Positions 10,263 through 63,315 of a DNA stretch of 64,000 nt are shown piece after piece. Each line of letters starts with the position of its first letter. Position 1 is the first letter of the stretch. This stretch comes from a virus. Lineage: Duplodnaviria > Caudoviricetes. The notes under the pieces were generated by a model that made no database searches, was not told the origin of the DNA, and was given only the letters and a program-made list of their open reading frames with translations. Both the position numbers and the translations under genes were made by a program. The DNA is taken from the IMG/VR virus record IMGVR_UViG_3300014836_000320, positions 1 to 64,000 of that record. The stretch is one strand, 5' to 3'.

Positions 10263-11147
10263 ATGGATAATCAAAATCCGCTGACGCAAAAGGCTCAAGC
10301 CAATCCGTTAGCACAATACTATCGCAGACCCGGCACCTATGTGCAACTGCCCAGTTCTGGACGTTTTTACTCAAAGCCGCCTAAATTCAGCGACACTGGC
10401 GAATTGGCTGTGTTTCCAATGACAGCCAAAGATGAACTGATTTTAAAGAATCCTGACGCACTATTCAACGGCGAAGCCATCAAGCAGGTGGTAGCCAGTG
10501 TTTGCCCAGATATTCCTGATGTCAATGAAATTCCTGCCGCAGATTTGGACATGATTTTGGTGGCCATGCGTATGACCAGTTACGGCGATGACATGGGGTT
10601 ATCAATCAGCCATGGCTGTGACGAAAGCAACGGTCGTGAACAAAGCATCACTGTAAGCCTAGGTTCCATTGTTGCTAGTCTGCGTCCAATTCCCAGCGAT
10701 GTCGGCATTGTAAAACTGGGTTCAGGCATCACAGTTGCACTTCGTCCGTATAATCTACATGATCAAAGTCGACTGTTGAGAATGCAGTTTAACACCATGC
10801 GCCAAATACAGGCCAATGAAGAAAACAAACTGCTCAGCACCGAAGATCGCACTCGCATTGCCACAGAACAATACAACTCCATGGTTGAATTGGCTCAACA
10901 ACTGTTGACAGGATGTGTGGAAAAAGTTTCAACACCAGACGGTGTTGAAGTCACTGATCGTCGACACATTGCAGATTGGGTGAAAAATCTCGATCGTGCC
11001 AGTGTTGATCGTTTGGATCAGGAACTCAAACGCTTTCAAGAGTTTGGTATCATTCGTGAAGTCACTACCAAATGTGATTATTGTGGCACCGACTATAAAA
11101 CTGACATGCTGTTTGATCCCACAAGTTTTTTTACCGCAGGCTCTTGA
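10263..11147 (+). CDS. Baseplate hub assembly chaperone, gp26-like
   Basis: MTAKDELILKNPDALFNG, DLDMILVAMRMTSYG, C-terminal KCDYCG..FDPTSFF. Confidence 0.85.
   Translation: MDNQNPLTQKAQANPLAQYYRRPGTYVQLPSSGRFYSKPPKFSDTGELAVFPMTAKDELILKNPDALFNGEAIKQVVASVCPDIPDVNEIPAADLDMILVAMRMTSYGDDMGLSISHGCDESNGREQSITVSLGSIVASLRPIPSDVGIVKLGSGITVALRPYNLHDQSRLLRMQFNTMRQIQANEENKLLSTEDRTRIATEQYNSMVELAQQLLTGCVEKVSTPDGVEVTDRRHIADWVKNLDRASVDRLDQELKRFQEFGIIREVTTKCDYCGTDYKTDMLFDPTSFFTAGS
11126..11132 (+). other. Candidate -1 ribosomal frameshift slippery site T TTT TTT
   Basis: In-frame X XXY YYZ heptamer 4 codons before the stop; the -1 frame is open into ORF 11144-11377. Confidence 0.6.
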
Positions 11148-11377
11148 GTCTTGGTAAAAATGGTCAAGCCATCAGAAAATACATTGATGGTATAGAATCA
11201 GAAGCAAGAGCCTTAATTAAAGAAGTCAGCACTATCAGTGTGTGGTCAGGAACCAGTGCCGAACATGTTTGGTTTATGACTTACCAAGAGCGCGAAGTGT
11301 TTACCGAAGTTATCAAAGAGAAACTTGATCTTCTTTACGGCAAAAAAGGAGTAGCCCGCGGTGGCTACTCTTTGTAA
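11144..11377 (+). CDS. gp51-like chaperone segment, probably expressed as a frameshift extension of the gp26-like protein
   Basis: WFMTYQEREVF motif; only a TTG start with no good SD; lies in the -1 frame of the upstream gene. Confidence 0.65.
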   Translation: MSLGKNGQAIRKYIDGIESEARALIKEVSTISVWSGTSAEHVWFMTYQEREVFTEVIKEKLDLLYGKKGVARGGYSL

Positions 11378-11547
11378 ACATAGTTGGGTTCTGCTTTCCA
11401 ACGTCCTTCAGGACAGGCCATAACAGCCAACTTGGTTTTGATAGGCATCAAACACCAGCATTTTCTGCAAACTCTAATAGAATTTAAATTAGGACAAGCC
11501 CAGCAGATGTTCAATCGCTCTTGGGCTACTTCTGGTTCTACAAACAT
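11365..11547 (-). CDS. Small Cys-rich protein (DUF6171-like), paralog of 1085-1336
   Basis: ERLNICWAC..VCRKCWC..CPEGRW; start trimmed to ATG 11547. Confidence 0.7.
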   Translation of the reverse strand: MFVEPEVAQERLNICWACPNLNSIRVCRKCWCLMPIKTKLAVMACPEGRWKAEPNYVYKE

Positions 11548-11659
11548 ACGCCATTCAAGACGCTGTAGCCCTTGAGGTTTGCTGTCGTGATCTCTGTTGA
11601 CCGTAGTAGATTTTGATACTCGCTTCAAGTCGTGGTTGTCCTTAATTGTTTCATCTTCT

Positions 11660-12240
11660 CTAGGGCGATTTCATCGCCCTGAATTTCGCGATGCTTCGCA
11701 TCTGCTCATTCTTTTTTATCTTGTTTTAGATTGGATATTTACAGTTTCAAACTTTATTAACTGTAGATTGTTTTTTAACTTAAGATGATACTTGACGATG
11801 ATGGACTAGCCACACTTAGCCGTAAGCACGGCTAAGTTTTTTGATGTTTGTGTCATCTTGACGATGCCGTCTACACCACCTTGGATTAAGCAACTGTTTG
11901 ACAACAGCAAAGGCGGTCACGCTCTACCTTTTTACACTTGACTTATAACGCTAGAAACTGCAACCGAATCCAAGCAATTTGCAGTTCTATGTAGGTTGTA
12001 ATAGTTCACCAGAGCCTACTCATTTTGGCAATCATATACTGCGCCAATCTCTTCCATGCCTGAGATCGCGTCCTGTTAAGGATAGTGGCGACAAGTCCCC
12101 GCTACCGCGTCGGGAGTTCCTTCCCCTGTGCAACCCAAGTGCCAGGTTTTATGGGTGTCAATTAACCGGCTGACACAAGCCTATCGGTAGTTATTCAAGC
12201 CTAAGCAGAGGTGCCGTCGTTAAAACATGCTTTAAAGCGA
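11660..12240 (-). ncRNA. Putative large structured ncRNA (size and ornateness like the ROOL/GOLLD class; family unconfirmed)
   Basis: No credible ORF; about 10 hairpins (e.g. 11814-11837, 11894-11907, 11909-11932, 11952-11989, 11991-12019, 12071-12082, 12155-12176); TAAATA late motif at 12247-12252. Confidence 0.7.
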
Positions 12241-12282
12241 GTAAGTTATTTAAGAGCCAGAAAAAATTAAAATATGCTATTA

Positions 12283-12804
12283 TTATGAATTAGCCGAAGA
12301 GGATGCCTGAACGCGATCTTTGTTGTGTTGCCAGAAGAGATCGTAGTCTACGATATACCAAATGCCGTATTTTTGACTACGATAGATAGAGTAGTTTTGA
12401 TTTTCAATGTCTGCCCAAGGGTGAGCCACAGCGATGAATTTACCTTTGCGGTTGAATTTCATTATAAGGATGTTAAAGTCGCCAGGATCGGCTGCGTCAT
12501 GTAGTTGATCTAGCCAAGATTCTAGTATTTTGATTTCGCCAGAGTAGAGTTGATGGAATGGAAAGTCAGCATAACTTTTGCATTCGCAGTTGAATTTAGT
12601 CCAGGTCAGGGGAGGTGTTATGTCCCCTTTCATGGACCTAATTTGTCCTTCGTGCAGAAACTCTTTGCGGAACTGATTCTTTCCGCCAATGTAGGCGCCC
12701 GAGTGAGGAACGCGGATGAACGTTTCACCATACAATTCAGTAAGGTGATTGGCTACATCCCGCTCCCAACTCTTGCCTTTGTTTTTGCTTTTGCTACCGG
12801 CCAT
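12283..12804 (-). CDS. Holliday junction resolvase-like PD-(D/E)XK nuclease
   Basis: SKNKGKSWERDVA..GDI..ECKSY motif. Confidence 0.85.
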   Translation of the reverse strand: MAGSKSKNKGKSWERDVANHLTELYGETFIRVPHSGAYIGGKNQFRKEFLHEGQIRSMKGDITPPLTWTKFNCECKSYADFPFHQLYSGEIKILESWLDQLHDAADPGDFNILIMKFNRKGKFIAVAHPWADIENQNYSIYRSQKYGIWYIVDYDLFWQHNKDRVQASSSANS

Positions 12805-12992
12805 TATTTTGCGGCCAACGCTTCCTTCTCGGCCGTAATCTCTTTACGGCGTTCTTTGATAGCCTTGCTCATTTCCTGTAGAGCCTTACGAGCGCGAGCG
12901 GCTGATGCCTTTACGCCCTTGACTGTGAACTTTTCATTTTCGGCCATATAGGTTTCAAATGCGTTCTTAATTGCTTCGTGATTTGCTGACAT
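12804..12992 (-). CDS. Histone H1-like (Hc1 family) small basic protein
   Basis: KGVKASAARARKALQEMSKAIKERRKEI resembles the Hc1-family KGNKAAG.RARK motif. Confidence 0.7.
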   Translation of the reverse strand: MSANHEAIKNAFETYMAENEKFTVKGVKASAARARKALQEMSKAIKERRKEITAEKEALAAK

Positions 12993-13002
12993 AAATGTCT
13001 CC

Positions 13003-14781
13003 TTAAATTAACAGCGAAGTATCTGTGTCGTTTTCCAACATGGTGAATCCATTTTGTTTTACGACCATCAATACATTATTGACTCGACCAGCCAACTCAT
13101 CTCGGTGACTGATCAAGAATACGTTACGATTCATTTCACGACCCATGGTCTTCAAAATAGCCATTGCGTTTTCAATGCCAATTTGATCCATGCCAGAATC
13201 CACAAGTTCATCAATGAACATGAGATTCATGGTTTCGTTGAAACTTTCATAAACGTCCCTAAAACTCCAACTCAGCGCAAGAATCAATCTATTACGCTCT
13301 CCGCGGCTTAGGTTGTCAAAATCAAAACTTTGACCCAGTTGTGTAATGTCCACTTCCAGATCACTTTTGAAAACAACCGTATGCGGTAGTTGTAGTTTAT
13401 CCAAGTAATATCCTAGCCTGTGATTCAAATAGCCAAGATTTTGCTCAATTATACGCTTTCGGACAAATGAGTCTTTGTTGGTCAGCAGTTTGAGCAGGAA
13501 ATCCTGATGCTCCAACAGTTTGGTCAAGCGATTCATTTCGTCCCAGTTGATTTCGGCCAGTGCAGTATTTTTCAAACTGGCAATCTGTTCTTGATAAGGA
13601 TCTTGTTCAGCATCCTTGGCAATCAACTGTTGTTTGAGGTTCTCTAGATTGTTTTTATGCGCGGCGGCATCTTCGAGATTCAAATATTTGGTTTTGGGTC
13701 TTTCCCCAAGGTCACCAATGGTTCTAACTGCTATGTCAGCCTGAGCCAGAAAACTATGTTCTTCTCTCAGAGAGGACTTGGCCAAGTCAATGGTTTGATT
13801 GGCGTTTGTCAACATTTCATCATGCTTGGTGTCGTGAACATCTTGACCACAACTGGGACAACGATGTTCAACCAAGTGACTGAGATTTGATTCGGCCAGT
13901 CGTAGTGCTTCTTGTAGTTTCTTTACGTTGGCTTGCCGCTGAGCCAATTCTTTATTGGCTAACTTTAGGCGAGTTTCATTTTCTTTGTAGACCACTAAAC
14001 TACGGTGTGATTCAAGTTCAGCCTCAATGTCCGTGGCTTCCAATTCTGCAATGGCCGCATCCAGTGCCGACATGTCTGTGGACTTTTTTGTAGCCCAGGT
14101 TCTACTACGTCGTTCTAGATCGTCAATGCTGGCCTGAACACGAGTATTGGCTTCTTGTAAAGCCTTGATACGAGCCTCTTCATCACGAATAGACTCTTTG
14201 GCGTTTTTAATGTGTTCACGCAGATACTCGGCCTTTTCACTTAGTTGTGTGATGCCCAGCAGTTCTTCAATGATATCGCGCTGTTCATTGGCCTTGAGAC
14301 TCAAGAAAGGCAATGTGTAGGTGTTAAGAGCCACAAGATGCTTGAACATTTCTGGGCCCATACCAACAACACGATCAATGGCTTCTTGTGTCACACGATT
14401 TTCACCAGCGCCTTCATCAGTGTTGGCTTCGTTGACTTCGCTGTCGTCAACATAGAAATGCAAGACATTGGGCTTGCGACCACGTTCAATCTTATAGCGA
14501 TTGCCATTCTTTTCAAACTCCACTGTGACCAACATGTTTTTGCCATTGGTCTTGTTCAGCAGATTCTCTTTGCGAATGTTGGTCAGTGCTGATCCATAAA
14601 GTGCATAACTCAAGGCATTGACCATTGTGGTCTTGCCCACACCATTGCGAGCACCATCACCGCCCAAGTCAAGATTGTTGCCTAGCACAAGGGTCAGGCC
14701 ATGTTGATCCATACGAAGAGCCTGGGTAACATTACCCACACTCATAAAGTTACGCATGGTTAGATTGCGAAATATAATCAT
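13003..14781 (-). CDS. gp46: Recombination ATPase, gp46/SbcC/Rad50-like
   Basis: Walker A GARNGVGKT, zinc hook CPSCG, signature LSRGE, Walker B FIDE. Confidence 0.95.
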   Translation of the reverse strand: MIIFRNLTMRNFMSVGNVTQALRMDQHGLTLVLGNNLDLGGDGARNGVGKTTMVNALSYALYGSALTNIRKENLLNKTNGKNMLVTVEFEKNGNRYKIERGRKPNVLHFYVDDSEVNEANTDEGAGENRVTQEAIDRVVGMGPEMFKHLVALNTYTLPFLSLKANEQRDIIEELLGITQLSEKAEYLREHIKNAKESIRDEEARIKALQEANTRVQASIDDLERRSRTWATKKSTDMSALDAAIAELEATDIEAELESHRSLVVYKENETRLKLANKELAQRQANVKKLQEALRLAESNLSHLVEHRCPSCGQDVHDTKHDEMLTNANQTIDLAKSSLREEHSFLAQADIAVRTIGDLGERPKTKYLNLEDAAAHKNNLENLKQQLIAKDAEQDPYQEQIASLKNTALAEINWDEMNRLTKLLEHQDFLLKLLTNKDSFVRKRIIEQNLGYLNHRLGYYLDKLQLPHTVVFKSDLEVDITQLGQSFDFDNLSRGERNRLILALSWSFRDVYESFNETMNLMFIDELVDSGMDQIGIENAMAILKTMGREMNRNVFLISHRDELAGRVNNVLMVVKQNGFTMLENDTDTSLLI

Positions 14782-15800
14782 CTATTAAGGCCCTGATAAA
14801 TTTCTGTCAGTAGTCTGCGATCAATGACTTCAGAGTCAATGGCTTGAATCTGATTCAACACAATTGCATCTACACTTTCAAACTGGATTTCACCACCCGA
14901 CCACTCAGTGGTGTGTTCTTCCTTTTTACCTGGAATCAGTGCCAGTTCGCGCATGCCATATTCTTTGACCCACTGTTCTTTGATGTAGGTGGCTTCCTCG
15001 TAGGAGATGTCTACGTCAATGGTTACCCTGGCAAATGTTTGTGTATCAAATAAACTTTCATGCTTGTCAATGGCTTCAGTAAGTGTCAGCGTCTTGAACT
15101 TGGGAGCATTGGGCCAGCGTCGGTAGTCAGGCTGTCCGCCATACTCCAGGAACATACACCCACGCTCGTCATCCCAGGCATCAGCATAGTTGTGCGGGAA
15201 ACAATTGCCCATATACACTACATTACCCTGTTGCTGTCGCTTGTGAAAGTGACCTGAGAACACCAGTTCTTGGTTGGGGAAGTGTCCAGCATTGAGTCCG
15301 CCATGATCAGGCATTTCAACCATGGCATTCATTTTGAATTTAGGCAATTCAAAGTGCCCAAACACATATCGACTCTTTAGTCGTTTCATTGATTGCCACT
15401 CGTCTCCGACCAGCCAAGGCACAATGGTCATGTCACCCACAGTGAGTATGTCATTGACCAGTGTGACATTAGGCAAGTAGCCGCCAAAAGGCAAACTGTT
15501 GATTTCTCGTTTTTCTCTGTAGGCCAAGTCATGGTTGCCCATGATAATGTAGACACGTTCAAAGTTTTCTGAAAGATACTTGATGTTTGATGCAGTATAG
15601 TTCAGCGTGGAAACGTTGATGTTGCTACGATTATTGTGCCAGTCACCTAGGAAGATTGCAGTTTCGGCTCCCTCGCGGTGAGCCTCTTCAGTCATCCAGC
15701 GGATAAAGTTTTCGCAGTCGTCATTGTGGGCACGACTGTTGTTGCGTAGTCCAAAATGGATGTCCGTAAAGCACACGGCTTTCTTGAAAGGTTGAGTCAT
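14778..15800 (-). CDS. gp47: Recombination nuclease, gp47/SbcD/Mre11-like
   Basis: Metallophosphoesterase motifs DIHFG, GDWH, GNHD, GHFH. Confidence 0.95.
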   Translation of the reverse strand: MTQPFKKAVCFTDIHFGLRNNSRAHNDDCENFIRWMTEEAHREGAETAIFLGDWHNNRSNINVSTLNYTASNIKYLSENFERVYIIMGNHDLAYREKREINSLPFGGYLPNVTLVNDILTVGDMTIVPWLVGDEWQSMKRLKSRYVFGHFELPKFKMNAMVEMPDHGGLNAGHFPNQELVFSGHFHKRQQQGNVVYMGNCFPHNYADAWDDERGCMFLEYGGQPDYRRWPNAPKFKTLTLTEAIDKHESLFDTQTFARVTIDVDISYEEATYIKEQWVKEYGMRELALIPGKKEEHTTEWSGGEIQFESVDAIVLNQIQAIDSEVIDRRLLTEIYQGLNR

Positions 15801-16012: not shown

Positions 16013-16426
16013 TTATTTTAGATACGGCTTCAAGTCCGGTGGCTTCCATCCTTCGGGCTTTAATACTTTGCCATCTTCGCGTTTGCGAACCTTGCCCGTG
16101 ATTGGGTCAATTTTGGCCAAGTTAGTTCTCATTACTTCATTCCAAGCACCTTCTGCATTGGCACCCATTGAATGGATGGCACCAATGGTCACTACCAGAA
16201 TGTCTACCAGCGCATCTAGTGTTTCTACAGGATCAGCATCTTTGACTCTGTTATGGTCGGTGTCTAATCCCTGTGCTTCCAACAGTTCGTGATATTCTTC
16301 CTTGATCAACTTTAGATATAGATCAAATTGAATACCCAATGGATCTGTAACTTCGTGCTGGTTGGAAGGAACTGCCTGATCGCAGGCTCGCATAAAGTGT
16401 TCTTGGTCCTTAAAAGGATTGGTCAT
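16013..16426 (-). CDS. MazG-like/PRA-PH-family NTP pyrophosphohydrolase
   Basis: LIKEEYHEL, LDALVDILVV, NLAK..RKREDGKVLKPEGW. Confidence 0.85.
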   Translation of the reverse strand: MTNPFKDQEHFMRACDQAVPSNQHEVTDPLGIQFDLYLKLIKEEYHELLEAQGLDTDHNRVKDADPVETLDALVDILVVTIGAIHSMGANAEGAWNEVMRTNLAKIDPITGKVRKREDGKVLKPEGWKPPDLKPYLK

Positions 16427-17430
16427 AGTTGATCCTCCTCAACAGGCATAGGCAAGTTTTCTTCATCAACTTCTTCACCAATCATGTCCATAGCATCCTT
16501 ATACGGTTCTTCTTTGTTTAGTTCGTTTTCCACGGCTTCGGCCTTAAGCGCATTTAGACGCTCGACTTCAGCATGGTGTTGTTCAATATGCTCCATTTGA
16601 CGTGTCCACGAAGGCATCTGACCGGCTTCTTGCAGTAAGTCATCACGAATATCACGCTGGCGTTTCTCTACGTTGAGCACCCGAGTAAACGAATTGGTTA
16701 CTGCCGCTGTGTAGTAGGCAAAAGGATTGTTGGACTTGGATTCATCAAACTGAAGTGCAATCTGAGTCAACTGTATAAGAGCCTGGCCTCGCATTTCGTC
16801 GATATAACTGTAGCCACGCCAGTTTGATCGCAAACTGTAGCGTTCACACAGTTTCAAGAACATAGCACCCAGGTGATTGGTAAGCCCGCCGTGGTCCACA
16901 CTAAATTTGCCACGCTTGAGCGTGCCTGACCAATGGCTACGAACTACTTCTTGCCAGTTTCCTTCACTGTCTTGAACAAAGTGTTTGAACGGTGGAAAAT
17001 TGACCTTGGCTCTGTGATCGCTTTCGCTTTTGGGATTGTTCTTGCGCCCAGGCTCCAAAGGAATATGTTCCCAGGACATGAGCCTGACCACTAGGTCAGT
17101 TGTGGCAATCTTTTTAATAGGTATCTCAAATTCGTCGGCTTTGGGTTTGGTGCTGGCTTTGCCGCCTTCTTCTGTCCACTTTGCCAGTGCCTGCTGATGT
17201 GCTTGTTGGCTAAGACGTGATGATCTAGCCTTTTTTGCCAAATTCAGCACACCCTCAGGATATGCCTTGGTTTTGCGATTATGAAAATGTTTTAGATCAT
17301 GTAGAATGATGTCATACTCAGTGTATTTTGGATCATCAATCCAGCAGTATGTGAGTTTACTGCGATGTATTTCTGCTAAAAGGTCTTTGTTTTTTAGGTA
17401 TACTTGTTTTGGTTTTTGTTCTTCAATCAT
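16423..17430 (-). CDS. gp55: Late-transcription sigma factor, gp55-like
   Basis: YLKNKDLLAEI, NWRGYSYIDEM, FDESKSNNPFAYYT motifs. Confidence 0.85.
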   Translation of the reverse strand: MIEEQKPKQVYLKNKDLLAEIHRSKLTYCWIDDPKYTEYDIILHDLKHFHNRKTKAYPEGVLNLAKKARSSRLSQQAHQQALAKWTEEGGKASTKPKADEFEIPIKKIATTDLVVRLMSWEHIPLEPGRKNNPKSESDHRAKVNFPPFKHFVQDSEGNWQEVVRSHWSGTLKRGKFSVDHGGLTNHLGAMFLKLCERYSLRSNWRGYSYIDEMRGQALIQLTQIALQFDESKSNNPFAYYTAAVTNSFTRVLNVEKRQRDIRDDLLQEAGQMPSWTRQMEHIEQHHAEVERLNALKAEAVENELNKEEPYKDAMDMIGEEVDEENLPMPVEEDQL

Positions 17431-27062: not shown

Positions 27063-30000
27063 ATGCAGAAAGATCCAAAACAATTTACAGGACAAGTTCC
27101 AGAAAATAACACTTACCCTGGCCAGCGTAAAGAAGGGCGTGTTGCACCATTGGCCATTGATTTGTTGCCATTGGTATTTAGAACAGATACAAACAAGAAA
27201 ATCTTTGGCGCCGCACTGGAAGACATGTTCCAGCCTTCGTCTATTGAAAACGTAAACTATGCAGTTGGTCAGCCATCTGGTAATGCTGGCATATCACAGG
27301 AATTCTTGCCAAGGAAAAATAGCCGCAGACAATTTGAAACTGGTCTTCTAGTCCAAGATTCAACCGGCACACGAGTTTTAACAGCCGATGACATTGCATT
27401 GAGCCAAGGCTTTTCTGATCAGCATCTCAATGAAAAACAAGTTCCAGTCAGTGTGTTAGATTTGCCAATCAATCCTGACAAGTTTGTCAATTGGAGCAAC
27501 TACTATTGGCTTGAAGAAGGAATGCCAACACTTTATATTGTTGGAACTTCATTGGAAGATGGCGGTGTTATCAGCATTGTCAACGACATCATTGGCAAAA
27601 AGAACTACACAATACCAACTCAAACCAATGGTCGAAGTGTTGAATTAAAAAATGGAATGCGTGTTGTATTCCAGAAAACTTACCCTAATAGAAACAACAT
27701 TGACGGCAACACATCTGAGCAACATGTTGCTGACGGGTCAAATCAACTGGACTTCCAGCATGAAATGACTCAACAATACAATAAGAGCAAGATTTCCATA
27801 TATGTAGACGGAGTATTAAAAACAGTCAACACTGATTATGCCTACACACTTGGCAGCATTATCTGGAGAGAAGGTAGTATTCCAGCCGCTGGTGCAGTGG
27901 TAGACATTGATCTACCAGACTACTGGGTCACTGAAGAAACTATACCACCAGAGCAACCAAAAATGGATCGCCGTTGGCAAGTGGAAGGCGTAGGCAGTCC
28001 CAGCGGCATTAGATTGCTTCCAAGATCACATCAAACAACAACCACAGTTTACAGTTCAACCATTCAGAGTCTATGGGATCAAACAACTATTCCTTGGGAT
28101 AGAATTGAATGGGACGGTGACATTCCTGGCATTAACAAAAAACATTATGTGCTACAGAACACAGGCGCCAGCAATCGATCAGCGTTCAGCCGTGTCAACG
28201 TTTGGATCCATAGAGATACAATCTTAACGGTTTGTAACTACCTCAACATAAAAACTGAAGAACTCATTGACGACCGTAAACGTGCATTGAGGCCAATTTT
28301 AGAGTTTGATCACAGACTTGAGTTGTTCAATCACGGCACAAAATTTAGACATTGGGTTGACGCTGTGGTTGACAGTAGATTTTCAATCATTCCTGTGAAT
28401 CCAGGATCTATTGGTCCATTTACATTGATTGGTCAACCATTGACCAAACTATTAGTTTATACATGCTTCAATGCAATTAGCAGTCAGTCTAATGCTATAA
28501 CTGCGCGAGCAGTATTGGATAAACTGGCCCTGGCACTAGACAACAACGATGACGAAGCATTAAACGAATTTGCCTTGGGTTTTGAAGCCAACGATAGAAC
28601 ACTGGTCATTGAAACATTGTTGAATATCAAAACAATTTTGAGAAATGTTCGCCAAGGAAAACTTTCAAATGTTCAGCGACGTGTGCTGTGGATCATTGAA
28701 GGTGCTTGGCAAAACAAGATCATTACTTTTAAAACCAACGACGACAACATTGTAGTGGGCTTTGAAGTTGAATCAGCCAATGACGGTGATGCCACTGTGG
28801 TGTTGCCAGGCAGCGGATTTGAATCAATGATGGAATATCAATGGATCAACGGTCAAGTTGTTCCAGCACAGACTCGATTGACACCTGTTCAGAAGCCTTT
28901 GTATAACATATACACTCGAGACCAACTGTCAATGACAGAGTGGTATCAAGTAAATGGAGTTAAGCCTACCAAGTTAAACTCAACAATTATTGAGTTTCTG
29001 GAAGAAGATGATCCCATTGACACCGAATCTGGCTACAAACTTTCGTTCTTGGCCAGCAAATTTAAGTCATTGGATCCTAATACTCCAGCGGCCAATCCCA
29101 TGTATGATATTCAATTTAAACATACGTTGCAGGATAAAATTTACTATCTAACTTCTGCTGTCACAGACAAAGAAATTCCTGGCCCTTATAGTTTTAGACG
29201 ATTGCAATCTGTGATCACCGAACAAGAGCAATCAGTCAATGAAGGATTGAGTTTTGGATATAGACGTGCGTGGTTTAGGCTACGCAGTTGGGTAATCAAT
29301 ACTCACAGCCTCGACAAGCACATTGTGGGATCAGTATCTCGCATTGCCATTGATGCTCATGCGTGGCCTACCTATGAATGGAATATTTGTTATGAAAATA
29401 ACATGCCAATGGTTTGCCACAGTGACAACCTTGAATACGCAGTTGAAAATTTAGTTGTGGCAGGCCGCGGCGAGAACCTAAAACTCAATACCATTGGTGT
29501 TAACACCATTGACATTTTTAACAAGAATACGCAGACAAATGTAATGTCTGGAAGCACCAACGGCCATGGTCAAATAACAGTATTCATTCCTGCTGACATT
29601 GAAGCAGGTTTTTATGAACTACACTTCAATGGTGAAACAAAAGTCAACCTATTGATAATTGATCCTGCGGCTGATCCTAGAGCACCAGCAATCAAAGTCA
29701 ATGGTATTGATGACACCAACTACAGTTTTATTGTTGGCAGAGGAATTGACAATTACGCAACTAACTTGACAATTGAATTTAACAGCATCAGCGGTATCGC
29801 TGAAATCAAGCACCAAGGCGAGTTTACCAGCAAATCAGATCATGCCACTGCTATTCCAGGGATTGAACTCAATCCCCTACAGATAGTAGAACTTGGCACG
29901 TTCACACCCAGTCGTTTGGTCAAAGGCATGCAAAGAACAATTAAAGCCAATGACATTCAAGAAAACTTAATTTGGACGTTGAGTCCACAGATTCCTGCAC

Positions 30001-33000
30001 TGGATGGAGCATTGATGGCTGACACATCTGCCATCAGAAGCACTTGGTTAAAAGAAAGAGTTAATCCCACTTTAACAGAAGCCTTGGCCAGTAGAAGCAT
30101 GACCAGTTGGCGCTGGTTTAGAAAATTTATTTCGCTGTTGGATCGCTACAACAAAATGTATGATCTAGACAATGAATTGCCGCGGCTGACCCTTGATCGA
30201 ATGTTAGAAGAAATGAACACAGGTATCAATTATAGTGTGCCTGATGCAGTTTCTGGTATGGCGTTTAACACCAATGACATGAACATGGCGTCATACATTG
30301 CCAATGGTCAAACAAGTTTTGCTATCAACACCGGTAGCCAAGAGTTTTACAGGGGAGTATATGGTCCTGATCACGTTTATGTGTATGTCAACAATATCTT
30401 ACAGCACACCGGCTATGCCATCGTTGGCCAAAATGTAGTGTTTGATGTTGCGCTGGCAACAGATGATCAGGTTTCAATTTACCACAGTGGAGAAGAATTC
30501 ATATATGCTGGCATTCCTGCCAGCCCAGCAAAATTGGGCCTAGGTGGAGTGTTTAAACCGCAGTTGATTAGAGAAACCTGGGGAAATTACGATCGTGTCT
30601 TGATTCAATGTCACGATGGCAGTAAAATTGTTGCCTTTCAAGAAAACTGGTTCAGCAACGGCGATCCCAGAGATGCTGTTATCCTGGAACTAGAAAGAAG
30701 AATTTATGCTGGATGTGTCAACAGAATAGGTGATCCAACACGCCAACGTTTGTCAACATACATCTATGGTCAAGAAGCCAGTGCTGATCGAGCCTTGGCA
30801 GAACTACAATGGTTTTTTGCAAACAACATTGATTACAAAGAACGCACTGACTTTATCAACGACAATCCATGGACATGGAACTACAGCGGTAAGAGTTGGC
30901 GTCGACTTTATCTTGATGAGTTTGGCACAGTCCAGCCTCACAGTCATCCTTGGGAGATCCTGGGCTTTGATGAAAAACCTGTTTGGTGGGACACACACTA
31001 TTCTTGGACAGATCCTGTAAAACGTGCCAACTTAGAAATGGCTCTCATGGGAGGAAAAATCTCTGAGCCAGGTCAGCCTGTCACTTACGATTTCCGTGTG
31101 CGTAGACTTTCAGCACTGGGCTATCCTGTGGGAAGCCTAGGGCAACTGTTAAACCCTGTTGAGTGGGGCTTGCCTTCGCCCAGCGTTGATCAAGCACGTC
31201 AACCGTGGGACATTGGCAGTTATGGTCCTGCTGAGGATGTATGGCTAAGAACTGGCGCCGGCATGTGGGCCGCTTGCATTGACAAAGCCAGCGATCTCAA
31301 GACTGCCAGCGAATTTGTTGAAACTGGCATCAATCCTTTTATCAAACCAAATATCAATAACTCACCCAAGGTTTTAGGTGATACATCATTGGCACCCAGC
31401 AATTTTGTGCAGGCGAGACCAACCATTGGTATTGGTGCAGTATTGTTTGAAACCAATCGAGAACTGAATTTGTTAGGCGAATCTCCGCTACTGGAAATGT
31501 CACTGATTCAGCCAGTGCTACAGTTTAGCGTGGGTGGATTTACAGATTCCACTGTGCGGTTTAGAATGTATCACACAAGATACCAGTCTGGCAATTATGT
31601 GCCAGAAGAAGACTTTGGCCTAACCCTAGACAGCGGTGTTGCTGAACACCAGGTTCGATATAGTGCAGTTCGTGTTGAAAAAGACGGCACAGGATTCAGA
31701 GTTTATGGTTTTGATCCCGAATACCGATATTTTGAAATCCTAGAACCCATTAAAGAAAACCCCAGCGGTGGTATCACTGGCTCATACCAGAATGTGTTTT
31801 CAACACCCACAGGTGATTACGTTGACTACAGTCAATGGAAACCCAATGCAGTCAAGGTTCCTTATGGTTCATTGATCAACAGCAAACAAGACTTGTTTGA
31901 CTTTTTTGCAGGCATGAACGAACTACAATCACAACGAGGATTGATTTTTGATCAACTCAATGATCGTGGAACTGTCAACAACTGGAAACAAGCGGCCATT
32001 GATGCCCTATCTTGGATTGACGAAAACTGGAGTGAAGAACACTTTTGCGTTGTTGAACCAGCCACTGCTGCCGGCGGATTCAAGTTTCATCACGCAGAAG
32101 GCCAACTTGATCAACTCAATTCAGACTTGCTCAAACGCGGAAAAATTCTTTTTGCCACAGGCAAAATTGCACAAGGCTCAGATCTGTTGACCACAAGAGA
32201 TTATGAAGAAAACACAGATTTGATTCAATCTCTCAATGATGAACAAGTTATTTTTGCGGATCTAAAAATCCGCAAATATGATCATGTATTTTTCTTCAAC
32301 TCTAAAACAAGATTCAATGATCTCATTATAGATCATGTCACTGGACAGCGATTGGATTATATTGGCATTGTTGGACGTAGAACTCGTGGATGGGACGGGC
32401 GTTATCAAGCCAATGGTGTATTGCCTACATTTACTGGTCTGCTACCAGGATTTGATGCACTGATCAATGACATCGTTGAAACTCGCAGACCTGAGAAATC
32501 ACAATTTGACAACTTCCTAGGCAGACTGTCTAAATCAAACGTTGTGCCAGTAAAAACCACTGTGCTCAGTGAAGTTATTCCTGATGCGGGTGTTGAATTT
32601 TTATTCAGACAGGGTCTACAAAGTGCTTCAGGCACCAACTTGGCCATCACAGCATTTTTCCGAAATGCCAATATTGATATTCCTGGCCGTAGCCAAGACA
32701 TCAACGTCAACGAACAATGGCTGTTTGCCAGCGGAGAGTTTGGCAGACTAGGCAACAGAAAAATCTGGGAAATTGAACTCAGAAAAGAAGATTTGATCAA
32801 CGACCGTCAAGTGATTAGATTCCTTGAAGGAAGAACAGATGTTGACCTACGCAGTGACAACATCATTGATATTATTGGCCCTAGAGACCCTCGCTGGATC
32901 AATCGTGATAGTTTTGATATACGTTTTGAAAAAGTAGCCCGTGCTGACATAGAGCAACAAAAACTTGCCACTATACAAAAGTGGTTGCCCAGTGCCGGTG

Positions 33001-36000
33001 TTGCCAACATTGATCAAACTGATCTCAAGGCCAGAGATTTAAATCAACTGTCCAATGGACTGGCGTTGGACAATGAAAAAGTTCAACATCTACTGTCAAT
33101 TCTAAGTTTCAGCAAGTTCAGAAACTATGAGCCAGAAGATCTTGTTTGGAACGATGGCGCTCTTTACAAGTGTGTGACAAAAGTCCAAGGCGGAGAAAAT
33201 ACCGCTTGGGATCCTGATCAGTGGACAATCTACAATGTAGAAGCAACATTGTTGCCTCCAAACATTTGGGTCAGCGATTACAATTTCAAAAACCCGTTCT
33301 CAGAAACAACTCCTCCTGGAGATGCTGACGTTGTAGGCTGGAACGTGCTACAGTTGGTAGGTCCCACTTATGTTGAAGAATGCTGTCCAAATGCTATTCA
33401 GACAGGGTTAAATGAAAGCAAAGTTACTTTTGGTAGCCCGCATCGTTTGACCACAGGAGATGTATTCCTAATGGTAGGAGCCAATGACGGCAACTACGAC
33501 AAGTTCCACACAGTCAAAGATCGTGTTGATGACTACAACGTATTGATTGAAGGTCGTAGCACCAGCAATACACCTATTTTTAACCTAGTGGTATTCAAAC
33601 TAACTTCAATGAAGTTTGGTTCTGTTGAAAGTCTACAGGCACAGTTAAATGGCGTTGAGGGTCTTAAAGAAGGCATGAAAGCCTTTGTAGAACCTGACGG
33701 AAGTCCCGACGGCGAATACATTGTTTACAAGTATACCAATCAAGGTAGCGTGTTCTCATGGCAACGTGACGAAACCTATACCACTGTTGCTGCCGCAATG
33801 GTCAATACACAAACCATTGAAAGTGTAACATTGTTGGATTCTGCCAATGAAAATATGTTGGCCACAGTTGAAGTATTTGATCCTTACAAGGGTCTTACCA
33901 TTGACGAGGTGGCAAGATTCATTGACTACAGAGACGGTGTTGATCCTGCAATCTACAACACAGATGACCTGGGTTTACCTGATCCAGATGCTGTCAACGT
34001 ATGGAACAATCAACACTTGGGTAGAATTTGGTGGGATACCAGTCGTGTTCGTTACTTTGAATACGAACAAGGCGACATCAATTATCGTGCCCGTAATTGG
34101 GGACAACAGTTTGACGGCAGTGAAGTGATAGTATATGAGTGGGTTCGTTCTGAACAATTGCCCACAACAGATGATGAACCAATGGCAAGACAAGACACCA
34201 GCAGTGGTGTTGGTGTTGTCAGATACAATGCCATTGAAGAAATTGAAACCACTGGTGCCACTCGCATATATTATTACTACTGGAAAAAGAATGTTTCTGA
34301 GTTGCCGGCCAACAGCAGTAGACGCTACAGCGCCATTCAAATACAAACAGTATTAGACAATCCAGACGTTGCTGGTGTGACCTGGATGAGCCCCATTGAC
34401 AGTAATGCGCTGATTATTTCAAATATTAGACAATACCTTACTACGCGAAACAGCGTGATATTACGCATTGAACAAAAAGACACACCAGAACAACAGCACG
34501 AAACAGGCATTTTGGTCAGCGAAGGCTTTACTGGTGACGTTGTTCCTGAGTATCTGTTCCGTAGACTTCGTGTAAGCCTGACAGGCCGAGACAATTTTAG
34601 AAAGTCATACCCGCTCAACACATGGCGTGAGAACACCGCCTATGAAGTTGGTGCTTATGTAATCAAGCAAGACTTCCCAGCAGAAGTTTCTGTGTATGAC
34701 AGTTACAGCACACTGGAGTTGGCCATCAATGGCAATTACGGTGGCAGAGATATTCCCATTATTCAAGTGTTTGATGATGGTAGAGAAGAAGTCAAGAATG
34801 TGTTGCGTCCAAAGTTAACCGGAGATGATTTATCTCCCATTGATGAAAAACTGCATCGTGTGTTTTATGTGGCCAACAGAACAGTTAATCCTGCCAATGA
34901 CATAGAGTCTCTTTGGAGAGTAGTGGCCAACGTTAATGGCGATCGCTTGGTTGTTGACTTGTATTCAGAAAACGAAGAAACAGCCAAACTACAAGTGTTG
35001 ACCGACAACCCAACAGCATCAATTGTTGAGGTCAACGGACTTTACATTTCTTCCACAGACTTTAGGCAAGACTACGTTGATGAAAAAATTGTGGTAAGTG
35101 CCACTAGTGCAATTATTCGAGGAGTTTTGGAAAGCAACGAATATCGTGCTGTGATCAATGCCAGCCGTCGTGTGCCAGATCCAAGGCTACATCCTCTACG
35201 TCGCTACGGCAACAACTACACAGTCATTCCACAAACATGGTTCAAGCACATTCGTGAGTCTCGCAGAAACTTTGTGAGAAGTGCCAATGCATACCTGCTA
35301 AAGATCAATGCAGTTGGCAAAGATCATTGGAATGCACACTTACTGACTTATAAACCTTTGTTTGGTCCATATATCAAGGACCTAACACCATACTGGAGAT
35401 ATGTTGATTATCTGGCCAATGGCTATCAGTATAACACAGAACAGTTTGTTATCAGCGATATTTCAGAAATGTCAGTTGATGGCATTTATGGCGTTGCAGA
35501 CAGTCGTGGTGTCATTGACAAGTCCTTTGTCAAAACAGGCAATGACATTGCCTTGGTATATCAACGCAACGGCACCATTCAATTCAATGATGCAATCTGG
35601 GATGGTAGCCTAGGCGACGCTTGGGACATGGCTCGTTGGGATCAGTATGCCTGGGACGAAGACAACAGCGAAGTGGTAAGAAGTCTAATCACCGCATTGC
35701 GTGAAGACCTTTTTGTGGAAGATGATCTGGGCTACTTTAATCTATTCTTCTTTGACATGGTCAAAGAAAGCCTGAGACAAATCCCCAACGCAAATTGGGT
35801 GTCAAAAACCACCTATTTGAACATCAGTCAAGTGTCAACCAATGATCTAACACCTGTGGGTGTTTACTTTGATCGCAGAGATGTGTTTGTTAAAAACTAC
35901 ATCAACGAAGTTAAACCTTACCACAGCAAGATTGTTGACATCAACCAAAGTCTAAGTAGCAACGAAAACATCACAGTCAACATTGAAGAAACGCTGGTAT

Positions 36001-36056
36001 TGTCCATTGAAGAAAATGGCACAACAACTGCTCAAACCCTGGCCGAAGGCGGCTGA
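27063..36056 (+). CDS. Giant virion structural protein (2997 aa), probable gp7-like baseplate wedge
   Basis: Follows gp6; INPDKFVNWSNYYW near N-terminus and YINEVKPYHSKI near C-terminus. Confidence 0.65.
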   Translation: MQKDPKQFTGQVPENNTYPGQRKEGRVAPLAIDLLPLVFRTDTNKKIFGAALEDMFQPSSIENVNYAVGQPSGNAGISQEFLPRKNSRRQFETGLLVQDSTGTRVLTADDIALSQGFSDQHLNEKQVPVSVLDLPINPDKFVNWSNYYWLEEGMPTLYIVGTSLEDGGVISIVNDIIGKKNYTIPTQTNGRSVELKNGMRVVFQKTYPNRNNIDGNTSEQHVADGSNQLDFQHEMTQQYNKSKISIYVDGVLKTVNTDYAYTLGSIIWREGSIPAAGAVVDIDLPDYWVTEETIPPEQPKMDRRWQVEGVGSPSGIRLLPRSHQTTTTVYSSTIQSLWDQTTIPWDRIEWDGDIPGINKKHYVLQNTGASNRSAFSRVNVWIHRDTILTVCNYLNIKTEELIDDRKRALRPILEFDHRLELFNHGTKFRHWVDAVVDSRFSIIPVNPGSIGPFTLIGQPLTKLLVYTCFNAISSQSNAITARAVLDKLALALDNNDDEALNEFALGFEANDRTLVIETLLNIKTILRNVRQGKLSNVQRRVLWIIEGAWQNKIITFKTNDDNIVVGFEVESANDGDATVVLPGSGFESMMEYQWINGQVVPAQTRLTPVQKPLYNIYTRDQLSMTEWYQVNGVKPTKLNSTIIEFLEEDDPIDTESGYKLSFLASKFKSLDPNTPAANPMYDIQFKHTLQDKIYYLTSAVTDKEIPGPYSFRRLQSVITEQEQSVNEGLSFGYRRAWFRLRSWVINTHSLDKHIVGSVSRIAIDAHAWPTYEWNICYENNMPMVCHSDNLEYAVENLVVAGRGENLKLNTIGVNTIDIFNKNTQTNVMSGSTNGHGQITVFIPADIEAGFYELHFNGETKVNLLIIDPAADPRAPAIKVNGIDDTNYSFIVGRGIDNYATNLTIEFNSISGIAEIKHQGEFTSKSDHATAIPGIELNPLQIVELGTFTPSRLVKGMQRTIKANDIQENLIWTLSPQIPALDGALMADTSAIRSTWLKERVNPTLTEALASRSMTSWRWFRKFISLLDRYNKMYDLDNELPRLTLDRMLEEMNTGINYSVPDAVSGMAFNTNDMNMASYIANGQTSFAINTGSQEFYRGVYGPDHVYVYVNNILQHTGYAIVGQNVVFDVALATDDQVSIYHSGEEFIYAGIPASPAKLGLGGVFKPQLIRETWGNYDRVLIQCHDGSKIVAFQENWFSNGDPRDAVILELERRIYAGCVNRIGDPTRQRLSTYIYGQEASADRALAELQWFFANNIDYKERTDFINDNPWTWNYSGKSWRRLYLDEFGTVQPHSHPWEILGFDEKPVWWDTHYSWTDPVKRANLEMALMGGKISEPGQPVTYDFRVRRLSALGYPVGSLGQLLNPVEWGLPSPSVDQARQPWDIGSYGPAEDVWLRTGAGMWAACIDKASDLKTASEFVETGINPFIKPNINNSPKVLGDTSLAPSNFVQARPTIGIGAVLFETNRELNLLGESPLLEMSLIQPVLQFSVGGFTDSTVRFRMYHTRYQSGNYVPEEDFGLTLDSGVAEHQVRYSAVRVEKDGTGFRVYGFDPEYRYFEILEPIKENPSGGITGSYQNVFSTPTGDYVDYSQWKPNAVKVPYGSLINSKQDLFDFFAGMNELQSQRGLIFDQLNDRGTVNNWKQAAIDALSWIDENWSEEHFCVVEPATAAGGFKFHHAEGQLDQLNSDLLKRGKILFATGKIAQGSDLLTTRDYEENTDLIQSLNDEQVIFADLKIRKYDHVFFFNSKTRFNDLIIDHVTGQRLDYIGIVGRRTRGWDGRYQANGVLPTFTGLLPGFDALINDIVETRRPEKSQFDNFLGRLSKSNVVPVKTTVLSEVIPDAGVEFLFRQGLQSASGTNLAITAFFRNANIDIPGRSQDINVNEQWLFASGEFGRLGNRKIWEIELRKEDLINDRQVIRFLEGRTDVDLRSDNIIDIIGPRDPRWINRDSFDIRFEKVARADIEQQKLATIQKWLPSAGVANIDQTDLKARDLNQLSNGLALDNEKVQHLLSILSFSKFRNYEPEDLVWNDGALYKCVTKVQGGENTAWDPDQWTIYNVEATLLPPNIWVSDYNFKNPFSETTPPGDADVVGWNVLQLVGPTYVEECCPNAIQTGLNESKVTFGSPHRLTTGDVFLMVGANDGNYDKFHTVKDRVDDYNVLIEGRSTSNTPIFNLVVFKLTSMKFGSVESLQAQLNGVEGLKEGMKAFVEPDGSPDGEYIVYKYTNQGSVFSWQRDETYTTVAAAMVNTQTIESVTLLDSANENMLATVEVFDPYKGLTIDEVARFIDYRDGVDPAIYNTDDLGLPDPDAVNVWNNQHLGRIWWDTSRVRYFEYEQGDINYRARNWGQQFDGSEVIVYEWVRSEQLPTTDDEPMARQDTSSGVGVVRYNAIEEIETTGATRIYYYYWKKNVSELPANSSRRYSAIQIQTVLDNPDVAGVTWMSPIDSNALIISNIRQYLTTRNSVILRIEQKDTPEQQHETGILVSEGFTGDVVPEYLFRRLRVSLTGRDNFRKSYPLNTWRENTAYEVGAYVIKQDFPAEVSVYDSYSTLELAINGNYGGRDIPIIQVFDDGREEVKNVLRPKLTGDDLSPIDEKLHRVFYVANRTVNPANDIESLWRVVANVNGDRLVVDLYSENEETAKLQVLTDNPTASIVEVNGLYISSTDFRQDYVDEKIVVSATSAIIRGVLESNEYRAVINASRRVPDPRLHPLRRYGNNYTVIPQTWFKHIRESRRNFVRSANAYLLKINAVGKDHWNAHLLTYKPLFGPYIKDLTPYWRYVDYLANGYQYNTEQFVISDISEMSVDGIYGVADSRGVIDKSFVKTGNDIALVYQRNGTIQFNDAIWDGSLGDAWDMARWDQYAWDEDNSEVVRSLITALREDLFVEDDLGYFNLFFFDMVKESLRQIPNANWVSKTTYLNISQVSTNDLTPVGVYFDRRDVFVKNYINEVKPYHSKIVDINQSLSSNENITVNIEETLVLSIEENGTTTAQTLAEGG

Positions 36057-41352: not shown

Positions 41353-41401
41353 AATCCTAGTCCTGCGGGCTATAAATAACCGCGTATATAATTCTAGGAT
41401 T
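41353..41401 (+). promoter_or_regulatory. T4-consensus late promoter TATAAATA (41371-41378) inside an 8-bp inverted repeat that covers the next SD
   Basis: aatcctag 41353-41360 / ctaggatt 41394-41401; AGGA at 41396-41399; ATG 41407. Confidence 0.65.
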
Positions 41402-63302: not shown

Positions 63303-63315
63303 GCGGATATTTATT

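What the first reader, a model, noticed from the sequence alone, without database searches (positions are those of the whole stretch)
11660..12252. ~600-nt ornate non-coding RNA candidate with its own late promoter
This is the largest ORF-free gap in the window and is packed with helices: 11662-11680, 11814-11837 (10-bp perfect), 11894-11907, 11909-11932, 11952-11989, 11991-12019, 12025-12047, 12071-12082 and 12155-12176. The 10-mer cttgacgatg is repeated (11791, 11857), and TAAATA at 12247-12252 would drive minus-strand transcription. Size and phage location fit the large ornate RNA classes ROOL and GOLLD, whose function is unknown. Late expression would hint at a role in assembly or packaging (inference).
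Basis: partly seen in the sequence, partly recalled or inferred. Interest (0 to 1): 0.85.

Follow-up and report, generated by a model that had tools for sequence, protein, structure and literature searches.

The report
Full-length Polynucleobacter-1 phage RNA
The gene-free gap holds a real, knotted non-coding RNA of about 400-530 bases on the minus strand, found in uncultured freshwater T4-like giant phages and in small mobile islands of Polynucleobacter; only its first third is catalogued (Rfam Polynucleobacter-1), it is not ROOL or GOLLD, and its function is still unknown.

Summary
Observation confirmed. Window 11660-12282 is non-coding, and 8 of the 9 helices named are kept in relatives with compensatory changes.

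Interpretation partly right. It is a large ornate RNA, read from the minus strand. It is not ROOL, GOLLD or HEARO (no Rfam match). Rfam places 12181-12037 in RF01718, Polynucleobacter-1 (90 bits, cut-off 37).

The conserved RNA runs further, from about 12190 to 11791 (400 nt), and has three pseudoknots. An AT-rich spacer and a conserved tail module (11711-11662) follow.

About 68 of 80 phage contigs and about 15 Burkholderiales genomes carry the same architecture.

These are always identical within an RNA and differ between RNAs, with about 20 variants. No complementary partner was found.

The "own late promoter" is not supported. In most relatives the RNA starts 0-30 nt after the stop codon of a small nuclease gene (PDDEXK_15 here, SegE-like GIY-YIG elsewhere). 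TAAATA is not conserved there.

The mechanism is unknown. My best guess is a trans-acting scaffold RNA of mobile elements. An origin pre-primer RNA is the main rival.

This scan had already found the same RNA and its twin boxes on other genomes.

The parts
12283..12804 (-). Upstream gene on the same strand: small PDDEXK_15 endonuclease (173 aa). The RNA follows it.
   Evidence: Pfam PF24608, E 2.3e-25. The same slot holds a SegE-like GIY-YIG nuclease (PF19835, E about 1e-31) in about 60 related loci.
12198..12282 (-). Leader or spacer between the nuclease stop codon and the RNA.
   Evidence: Relatives have only 0-30 nt here, or unrelated sequence.
12185..12190 (-). 5' strand of pseudoknot PK1 (CUACCG). 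It pairs with the P3 loop CGGUAG at 12107-12102 and lies outside the Rfam model.
   Evidence: 100% paired in 13 sequences, with UA/CG/GC exchange at one pair. A sequence's own leader and loop pair better than leaders and loops from different sequences: mean run 5.7 vs 4.0, and runs of 6 or more in 67% vs 15% of 51 sequences.
12037..12181 (-). 5' domain, equal to the Rfam RF01718 Polynucleobacter-1 motif (helices P1, P2, P3, P4, P4a, P4b).
   Evidence: cmscan gives 90 bits (gathering score 37), E 7e-18, model positions 1-141 of 141.
11881..12036 (-). Uncatalogued middle domain. It holds the PK3 3' strand (12030-12027, pairing with 12060-12057), H6 (12019-11991), H7 (11986-11956), H8 (11931-11909, around the conserved GGUAnAGCGUGACCGCC), H9 (11907-11894) and the PK2 3' strand (11887-11881, pairing with the H7 loop at 11973-11967).
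   Evidence: A profile of the part of the RNA lying 3' of the Rfam motif (middle domain through box 2) hits directly after that motif in about 68 of 80 phage loci. Compensatory changes are seen. For PK2, 5 of 7 pairs change on both sides and 91% of cells pair. PK2 also pairs better within a sequence than across sequences (7.7 vs 6.2).
11857..11866 (-). Twin box 1 (CAUCGUCAAG).
   Evidence: Exact copy of box 2. In 54 loci the two boxes are identical, with about 20 variants across loci. Mutual information equals the full column entropy at all 7 variable columns.
11809..11836 (-). H10, a 9-10-bp G+C hairpin (11836-11815), followed by the nearly invariant AAGUGUGRC.
   Evidence: Conserved with CG/UG/GC/UA exchanges. 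CTAAGTGTGGC is single-copy in the window.
11791..11800 (-). Twin box 2 (CAUCGUCAAG).
   Evidence: As for box 1. The spacing between the boxes is 66 nt here and 47-66 nt in relatives.
11712..11790 (-). AT-rich spacer (G+C about 0.35 in this stretch, against 0.45-0.5 in the flanks). It is variable in relatives.
11662..11711 (-). Tail module. GAAU-GAGC-[hairpin]-GCGAAA-UUC lies at 11711-11681, and the hairpin AGGGCG...CGCCCU at 11680-11662.
   Evidence: Conserved in 9 of 13 clade members. It recurs as stem-UGAGCGnnAGCGAAA-stem in the main phage clade and in the bacterial copies.
11365..11628 (-). Downstream ORF on the same strand: a Cys-rich small protein (DUF6171-like, phrog_13558). It is probably not part of the RNA.
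   Evidence: It is present downstream only in this phage and in L002.

Best explanation
Shown: window 12190-11791 (minus strand), probably continuing to 11662, encodes the full-length form of the Polynucleobacter-1 RNA. This is a 400-530-nt non-coding RNA with at least 14 conserved helices, three of them pseudoknots. It is carried only by mobile elements: uncultured freshwater T4-like giant phages and small integrase-bearing islands of Polynucleobacter and other Burkholderiales.

Inferred from anatomy: it has no conserved promoter of its own and is made as the 3' part of the transcript of the nuclease gene in front of it.

Inferred, low confidence: it acts in trans as a folded scaffold. It presents two identical, element-specific 10-15-nt single-stranded 'twin boxes' on either side of a G+C hairpin. 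These would serve as paired recognition or processing sites for a partner that is private to each element. That partner could be a protein or a nucleic acid encoded elsewhere in the element.
For: Identity:
- RF01718 at 90 bits over the full model.
- The part 3' of the Rfam motif is found after it in about 68 of 80 phage loci. The same blocks are visible in about 13 bacterial loci.

Structure:
- Covariation statistics (0 of 500 shuffles reach the observed value; slid controls 0.05-0.12 against 0.321).
- Compensatory pairs in 51 sequences.
- Pseudoknot checks within and across sequences.
- G-U pairs fix the strand.

Not coding: alignments show indels that are not multiples of three, and the small ORFs are not kept.

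Carried by mobile elements, not a housekeeping RNA:
- Found in 13 of 121 sampled Polynucleobacter species, 1-2 copies, at scattered positions.
- The copies sit in islands with tyrosine recombinases, an AAA ATPase and AbiEi.

Co-transcription: the RNA starts 0-30 nt after the nuclease stop codon in most loci.

Not a 5' leader: in many loci the next gene converges on the RNA.

Twin boxes:
- Identical in 54 loci. The correlation is perfect at all 7 variable columns.
- Two paralogous RNAs in one genome carry different boxes.
- No helix with covariation support uses them.
Against: - There is no transcript evidence of any kind. No cultured phage carries the RNA.
- No partner for the boxes was found: none in cis, none in 367 kb of flanks, none in a 99%-complete 345-kb relative.
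- No protein is shared between the phage and bacterial neighbourhoods within 3.5 kb. A common protein partner, if it exists, is unidentified.
- The ends of the RNA are not mapped. No intrinsic terminator follows box 2 or the tail.
- The single-sequence folding energy is unremarkable.
Confidence: 0.55

Rival explanations
1. Replication-origin pre-primer RNA, working like ColE1 RNA II or the R-loop origins oriF and oriG of T4. The folded 5' 350 nt would shape a transcript whose 3' part stays hybridised to the DNA. The twin boxes would act as iteron-like or R-loop-anchoring repeats specific to each replicon. DNA would open in the AT-rich stretch that follows.
For: - Direct repeats that are identical within an element, yet differ between two related elements in one cell, are what replicon-specific origin repeats look like.
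- An AT-rich stretch follows box 2.
- The element lies on independently replicating or mobilisable DNA of two kinds: phages, and islands with an AAA+ clamp-loader-like ATPase.
- The locus sits beside recombination and replication genes.
- From general knowledge, not tested here: T4 primes origins from R-loops, and ColE1 RNA II is a structured pre-primer of about 550 nt.
Against: - The boxes differ at three fixed positions (CUC vs UCU). Box 1 RNA on the box 2 template would therefore carry two C-A mismatches.
- Box spacing varies from 47 to 66 nt with no helical phasing.
- There are only two repeats, and they are short.
- No initiator protein is shared by phages and islands.
- The AT-rich spacer is poorly conserved in length.
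- Nothing here measures replication.
Confidence: 0.18
2. A self-processing RNA (ribozyme), or the substrate of a sequence-specific RNase. Cuts at the same position in both twin boxes would release the fragment of about 55-66 nt that holds H10 and AAGUGUGAC, in the way repeats flank a unit in CRISPR or ToxI transcripts.
For: - Size, pseudoknots and many invariant unpaired nucleotides (CACUAUCC, GGUAC..ACCGCC, AAGUGUGAC) resemble catalytic or tightly folded RNAs.
- Identical boxes flank a conserved unit.
Against: - No match to any ribozyme family in Rfam.
- No internal guide complementary to the boxes.
- There is only one unit, not an array.
- The tail's UGAGC...GCGAAA only superficially recalls a hammerhead core, and it lacks CUGA in this window.
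Confidence: 0.1
3. A purely cis-acting element of the nuclease operon: a 3'-UTR stabiliser or terminator, or a leader or antitermination element for the variable genes downstream.
For: - It directly follows a gene and has no conserved promoter.
- Weinberg et al. 2010 listed the motif as possibly cis-regulatory (PMC2864571).
- Variable genes on the same strand follow it in about 20 loci.
Against: - A pseudoknotted fold of 400 nt is far more than is needed to protect a 3' end.
- In many loci the next gene converges on the RNA, so it is not a leader there.
- In bacteria the neighbouring DUF6641 gene is divergent, so there the RNA is not a 3' UTR.
- The same RNA is kept behind two unrelated nuclease genes.
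Confidence: 0.1

Closest known systems
Polynucleobacter-1 RNA motif (Rfam RF01718; Weinberg et al. 2010, Genome Biol 11:R31, PMC2864571)
   Same: Window 12181-12037 matches the whole 141-position model at 90 bits. The habitat is the same (fresh water, Burkholderiales). The position downstream of a small phage-like gene is the same: the paper's supplement notes genes of family GOS11034, similar to P-SSM2 gene 218.
   Different: - The catalogued motif is only the first third. A 5' pseudoknot strand lies outside the model, as do about 250 nt of conserved helices and pseudoknots, the twin boxes and the tail module.
- The 2010 paper found no example in any sequenced purified phage. Here the RNA lies in IMG/VR T4-like giant-phage contigs.
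- One relative (L010) keeps the 3' part but not the Rfam domain.
ROOL, GOLLD and HEARO large ornate RNAs
   Same: All are large (400-800 nt), heavily structured and often carried by phages or prophages. The functions of ROOL and GOLLD are unknown.
   Different: There is no sequence or structure match to their covariance models. The helices and conserved motifs are unrelated. The taxa differ: freshwater Betaproteobacteria and their T4-like phages.
ColE1 RNA II and the R-loop origins of T4 (oriF, oriG)
   Same: This is a resemblance in how it might work, drawn from general knowledge: a long structured transcript ends at an AT-rich stretch, with a repeated RNA segment that could anchor a hybrid.
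   Different: There is no homology and no evidence of replication. The repeats are not fully identical at their 5' ends.
Lambdoid nutL/nutR sites
   Same: Two copies of a short RNA element are identical within a phage and differ between phages. In lambda this is because a phage-specific protein reads them (general knowledge).
   Different: Here both copies lie 47-66 nt apart within one structured RNA. There is no boxB-like conserved loop and no N-like protein has been identified.

Membership tests
Polynucleobacter-1 RNA (RF01718) | Score at or above Rfam's gathering score, over the full model. | tested here: met
   90 bits against 37, model positions 1-141 of 141, E 7e-18.
Polynucleobacter-1 RNA (RF01718) | The model's helices are kept, with compensatory changes, in homologues. 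| tested here: met
   P1, P3, P4 and P4b each have 3-5 pairs that change on both sides in 13 sequences. P1 shows 12-27 double changes per pair in 51 sequences.
Polynucleobacter-1 RNA (RF01718) | Lies downstream of the small phage-like gene noted by its authors (GOS11034, similar to P-SSM2_218). | tested here: inconclusive
   About 60 relatives have a SegE-like GIY-YIG gene there, whose homologues are common in cyanophages. This window has an unrelated PDDEXK_15 gene in the same slot. I could not check the identity of GOS11034.
ROOL (RF03087), GOLLD (RF01998), HEARO (RF02033) | A match to the family's covariance model. | tested here: not met
   No match at the gathering score in 64 kb, and none at E<=5 in 11200-12500.
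tmRNA or tRNA-like RNA | A tRNA-like domain and tag reading frame that ARAGORN or Rfam can detect. | tested here: not met
   ARAGORN finds 0 genes and there is no Rfam tmRNA match.
T4-type late transcription unit | A late promoter TATAAATA about 6-10 nt upstream of the start, conserved in relatives. | tested here: not met
   The sequence is CTTAAATA at 12245-12252. There is no conserved motif, and usually no room for one, in relatives. TATAAATA and ATAAATA occur elsewhere in the window, upstream of genes.
Origin pre-primer RNA (ColE1 RNA II-like) | DNA synthesis starts at the 3' end of the RNA, through a persistent RNA-DNA hybrid. | not testable with these tools
   Only anatomy is available: direct repeats and a downstream AT-rich stretch.

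The most novel reading that the evidence does not exclude
The twin boxes are an element-specific address. Each phage or island carries a private 10-15-nt sequence, presented twice on a conserved RNA scaffold, that directs a partner to matching nucleic acid. The partner could be replication machinery, a nuclease or a recombinase. On this reading the RNA would be a new class of programmable RNA in mobile elements. The fixed differences between the boxes are transitions only (CUC/UCU, G/A), which is what wobble pairing to a single partner strand would allow.
Probability: 0.12. Interest if true: 0.9.

Novelty: new variant of a known kind. Interest (0 to 1): 0.55.

Why it matters
Large, intricately folded bacterial and phage RNAs of unknown function are rare, and they have repeatedly led to new biochemistry.

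This one turns a 141-nt Rfam motif of unknown function into an RNA of 400-530 nt with three pseudoknots. It is shared by giant freshwater phages and by chromosomal islands of the same bacterial group (Polynucleobacter and other Burkholderiales). That sharing points to a role in the conflict or cooperation between mobile elements.

The twin boxes are private to each copy and always matched. They give a concrete experiment: change one box, or both.

The result also corrects the catalogue. The Rfam model misses two thirds of the RNA, including the part that is most widely kept.

Tried and rejected
- ROOL, GOLLD, HEARO, tmRNA, ribozyme families: no Rfam or ARAGORN match.
- Protein coding: the small ORFs in the gap are not conserved.
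- Own late promoter: rejected.
- Cis partner for the boxes: no complement of 8 nt with G-U allowed, or of 6 nt with Watson-Crick pairs only, at any consistent place. No third column shows comparable mutual information.
- Box 1 pairing with box 2, as RNAalifold proposed: broken in the GCAUAAU, GAAUAAU and R=A variants.
- Trans partner revcomp(N7)+GGG: none in 367 kb of flanks or in a 99%-complete relative. The two extra TCTGGATAATA sites there are at chance level and lie in coding DNA.
- Box targets in this window: only chance-level near-matches.
- H10 as a repeated mini-element: it is single-copy.
- Proteins shared between phage and bacterial neighbourhoods: none.
- DUF6641 as a hidden nuclease or a relative of the phage nucleases: hhalign probability 0.2%. 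The AF2 model (pLDDT 74) has no PDB fold match.
- Island proteins as a known defence system: only an AbiEi cargo gene.
- Cultured phages with the RNA: none by BLAST. Melnitz, Variovorax phage V45v66 and Acidovorax ACP17 have the GIY-YIG gene but not the RNA.
- Pseudoknot PK3 across all 51 sequences: my column ranges gave no signal. It is supported only within the 13-sequence clade.
- Thermodynamic stability as evidence: not significant.

Full report
**Setting.** The window is part of an 86-kb IMG/VR virus record. CheckV rates it 26% complete, which implies a genome of about 330 kb.

Around the finding lie genes of a T4-like phage:
- a gp55-like late sigma factor (16423-17430, minus strand)
- SbcD/SbcC-like gp47/gp46 (13003-15800, minus)
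- an Hc1-like histone H1-like protein (12804-12992, minus)
- a PDDEXK_15 endonuclease (12283-12804, minus)
- a Cys-rich 87-aa ORF (11365-11628, minus)
- converging on these, a 77-aa ORF and a baseplate hub gene (10263-11377, plus)

**The observation.** The stretch 11629-12282 has no credible ORF. The 10-mer is present exactly twice in the whole record. Single-sequence folding does not distinguish the region from shuffled sequence: the z-score is -0.42 on the minus strand. "Packed with helices" is therefore not evidence on its own. The evidence is comparative.

**What it is.** Rfam's cmscan gives a single hit in the window: RF01718, Polynucleobacter-1 RNA, at 12181-12037 on the minus strand. 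It scores 90 bits against a cut-off of 37 and covers the full model. No ROOL, GOLLD, HEARO, tmRNA or ribozyme family matches, even at E<=5.

Homologues of the PDDEXK gene were fetched from IMG/VR, giving 49 loci. The Rfam motif follows that gene in 11 of the 12 nearest loci. Alignment of the intergenic regions showed that conservation continues 3' of the Rfam motif.

A scan of IMG/VR for the invariant core CACTATCCTTNNNAGGACG returned more than 119 stretches, of which 80 were kept as loci. A profile of the part lying 3' of the Rfam motif hits directly after it in about 68 of the 80. The misses are mostly loci that are cut short.

The same scan of one genome per prokaryote species found about 15 true copies. 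These are in Polynucleobacter and other Burkholderiales, plus a few metagenome bins labelled otherwise. By eye they carry the same 3' blocks, although they are too diverged for the phage profile to detect.

**Structure.** For the 13 sequences of the window's own clade I wrote out 14 helices with 82 pairs, three of the helices being pseudoknots. I counted them with the neutral tool:
- 85.7% of cells pair, against 75.7% in shuffles.
- 37 pairs show changes on both sides, against 23.7 +/- 2.6 (0 of 500 shuffles reach this).
- The covariation score is 0.321, against 0.146 in shuffles and 0.05-0.12 when the 3' partners are slid.

Helices outside the Rfam model are supported:
- PK1 (12190-12185 with 12107-12102)
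- PK3 (12060-12057 with 12030-12027)
- H6, H8, H9
- PK2 (11973-11967 with 11887-11881; 5 of 7 pairs compensatory)
- H10

H7 is a hairpin in every sequence, but it is misaligned in this alignment and pairs in only 39% of cells.

Across all 51 non-redundant sequences, RNAalifold's pair table shows 7-27 double changes per pair in P1, H6, H7, H8 and H10. PK1 and PK2 also pair better within a sequence than across sequences.

G-U pairs fix the strand as minus. P3 has U-G in 12 of 13 sequences, and several H10 pairs alternate between C-G and U-G.

Its strands belong to P4 and PK3.

**Extent.** The core runs from 12190 to 11791, which is 400 nt. After an AT-rich spacer comes a tail module at 11711-11662. 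It is conserved in 9 of 13 clade members. It recurs as stem-UGAGCGnnAGCGAAA-stem in the main phage clade and in bacteria. The RNA may therefore be about 530 nt long. Neither end has been mapped.

**Twin boxes.** In 54 loci a 7-10-nt box before H10 is repeated exactly after H10, 47-66 nt away. About 20 different box sequences occur across loci.

In 32 main-clade RNAs, every variable column of box 1 has its highest mutual information with the same position of box 2. That value equals the column's whole entropy. This extends the twin stretch to about 15 nt.

The fixed differences between the boxes are transitions only: A-CUC-N8-G against A-UCU-N8-A.

Two paralogous RNAs lie 18 kb apart in one Polynucleobacter genome, and they carry different boxes: AGAGAAAG and AGCGAAAG. 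The boxes are therefore private to each RNA and are not set by a single host factor.

I found no complementary partner:
- none in cis
- none in 367 kb of flanking phage DNA
- none in a 99%-complete 345-kb relative
- none in this window

The two boxes do not pair with each other in a way that survives the variants.

**Context.** In phages the order is gp47 - gp46 - Hc1-like - small nuclease - RNA. Then comes either a converging 77-aa gene plus the baseplate hub, or a variable gene inserted on the same strand.

The small nuclease is PDDEXK_15 in this window and its nearest relatives. In about 60 other loci it is an unrelated SegE-like GIY-YIG protein. This is a non-orthologous replacement in a fixed slot.

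In most loci the RNA starts 0-30 nt after the nuclease stop codon. The 92-nt leader of this window, with its TAAATA, is therefore the exception, and no promoter is conserved. The words TATAAATA and ATAAATA are rare in the window and sit mostly just upstream of genes. The site in front of the RNA reads CTTAAATA.

In bacteria the RNA lies next to a divergent DUF6641 gene. In 7 of 13 loci it lies upstream of a 188-aa tyrosine recombinase. These loci are small islands that also hold an AAA+ clamp-loader-like ATPase, a second integrase and cargo such as AbiEi.

Only 13 of 121 sampled Polynucleobacter species carry the RNA, with one or two copies at scattered positions. It is accessory, not housekeeping. 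No protein is shared between the phage and bacterial neighbourhoods.

No deposited or cultured phage has the RNA.

**How it may work.** Shown: this is a conserved, pseudoknotted minus-strand RNA of mobile elements, with matched private boxes.

Inferred: it is co-transcribed with the nuclease gene. It is not a 5' leader, because the next gene often converges on it. It is not merely a 3' UTR, because in bacteria the neighbouring gene is divergent.

My best guess is a trans-acting scaffold that presents the two boxes to an element-specific partner. I give the identity about 0.9 and the mechanism about 0.25-0.3.

The main rival is an origin pre-primer RNA, at about 0.18. Direct repeats that are private to each replicon, followed by AT-rich DNA, on two kinds of independently replicating elements, fit that picture. 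The three fixed mismatches between the boxes, the variable spacing and the lack of any shared initiator speak against it.

A self-processing or processed RNA, and a purely cis-acting element, are each given about 0.1.

**Relation to earlier work.** Weinberg et al. 2010 described the 141-nt motif from 16 sequences. They noted its position downstream of a gene similar to cyanophage P-SSM2 gene 218, and they found it in no sequenced phage (PMC2864571).

Earlier agents of this scan reported the same full-length RNA and its twin boxes on other genomes. My results on this window agree with theirs and add five points:
- the replacement of the GIY-YIG nuclease by PDDEXK_15
- the bacterial island context, with paralogues in one genome that carry different boxes
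- the transition-only differences between the boxes
- the negative search of a complete genome for a partner
- the rejection of the late promoter

Noticed in passing
L064:1350-2087, L072:4979-5917, L078:8256-9140, L081:3705-4619, L112:2015-2872, L104:6621-7973(-), L101:8581-9705(-), L088:7283-8461(-), L097:6210-6776(-), L131:4820-5671(-): In related phages the slot just downstream of the RNA holds a different, mutually unrelated gene in almost every lineage. All of these genes nevertheless begin with M-K/R-(V/I/L)-x-(E/D)-(I/L)-(I/L)-x-E. This resembles the short capsid-targeting sequence of T4 internal proteins, which are otherwise highly diverse (PMC3012670). They are candidate injected internal proteins in a hypervariable cassette site.
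   Followed up: partly
window 12283-12804 (-) versus L110:1869-2294, L063:855-1292 and others: Two unrelated small nucleases occupy the same slot between the Hc1-like gene and the RNA: PDDEXK_15 here, SegE-like GIY-YIG in most relatives. Given the neighbouring gp46/gp47 genes, the slot may encode the phage's structure-specific (resolvase-like) nuclease rather than a homing enzyme. The GIY-YIG gene has homologues in 603 deposited phage records, many annotated 'NAD synthetase', which is probably a mis-annotation.
   Followed up: partly
L264/L265 (G050:C1:394000-428000); also L189, L214, L231, L234, L256: The Polynucleobacter islands that carry the RNA share a module: DUF6641, the RNA, a 188-aa tyrosine recombinase that is catalytic domain only, an AAA+ clamp-loader-like ATPase, and two proteins of 256-290 aa with no known family. 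One genome holds two such modules 18 kb apart. They are possibly phage satellites. No known defence system matched apart from AbiEi cargo.
   Followed up: partly
window 12804-12992 (-): A 62-aa protein matches the chlamydial histone H1-like Hc1 family (PF07432, E 3e-11). It is conserved between gp46 and the nuclease in most related phages.
   Followed up: no
window 41371-41378 (+), 63308-63314 (-), 56057-64 (+): (T)ATAAATA is under-represented in the window: 4 copies of ATAAATA against about 8 expected. Three of the four sit just upstream of genes or between genes. They are probably the real late promoters of this phage.
   Followed up: partly
window 11349-11370 (-) / 11308-11380: A terminator-like hairpin lies between the converging 77-aa ORF and the Cys-rich ORF. 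It gives a sub-threshold Rfam hit to STnc370 (30.8 bits against a cut-off of 54). That hit is most likely just the shape of a terminator.
   Followed up: no
window 27063-36056 (+): A single ORF of 2,997 aa lies inside the structural gene block. It was not examined.
   Followed up: no
L010:3478-3925: One relative keeps the 3' domains of the RNA (H8, box 1, H10, box 2) but has no Rfam-detectable 5' domain. The uncatalogued part is therefore the more widely kept part.
   Followed up: partly
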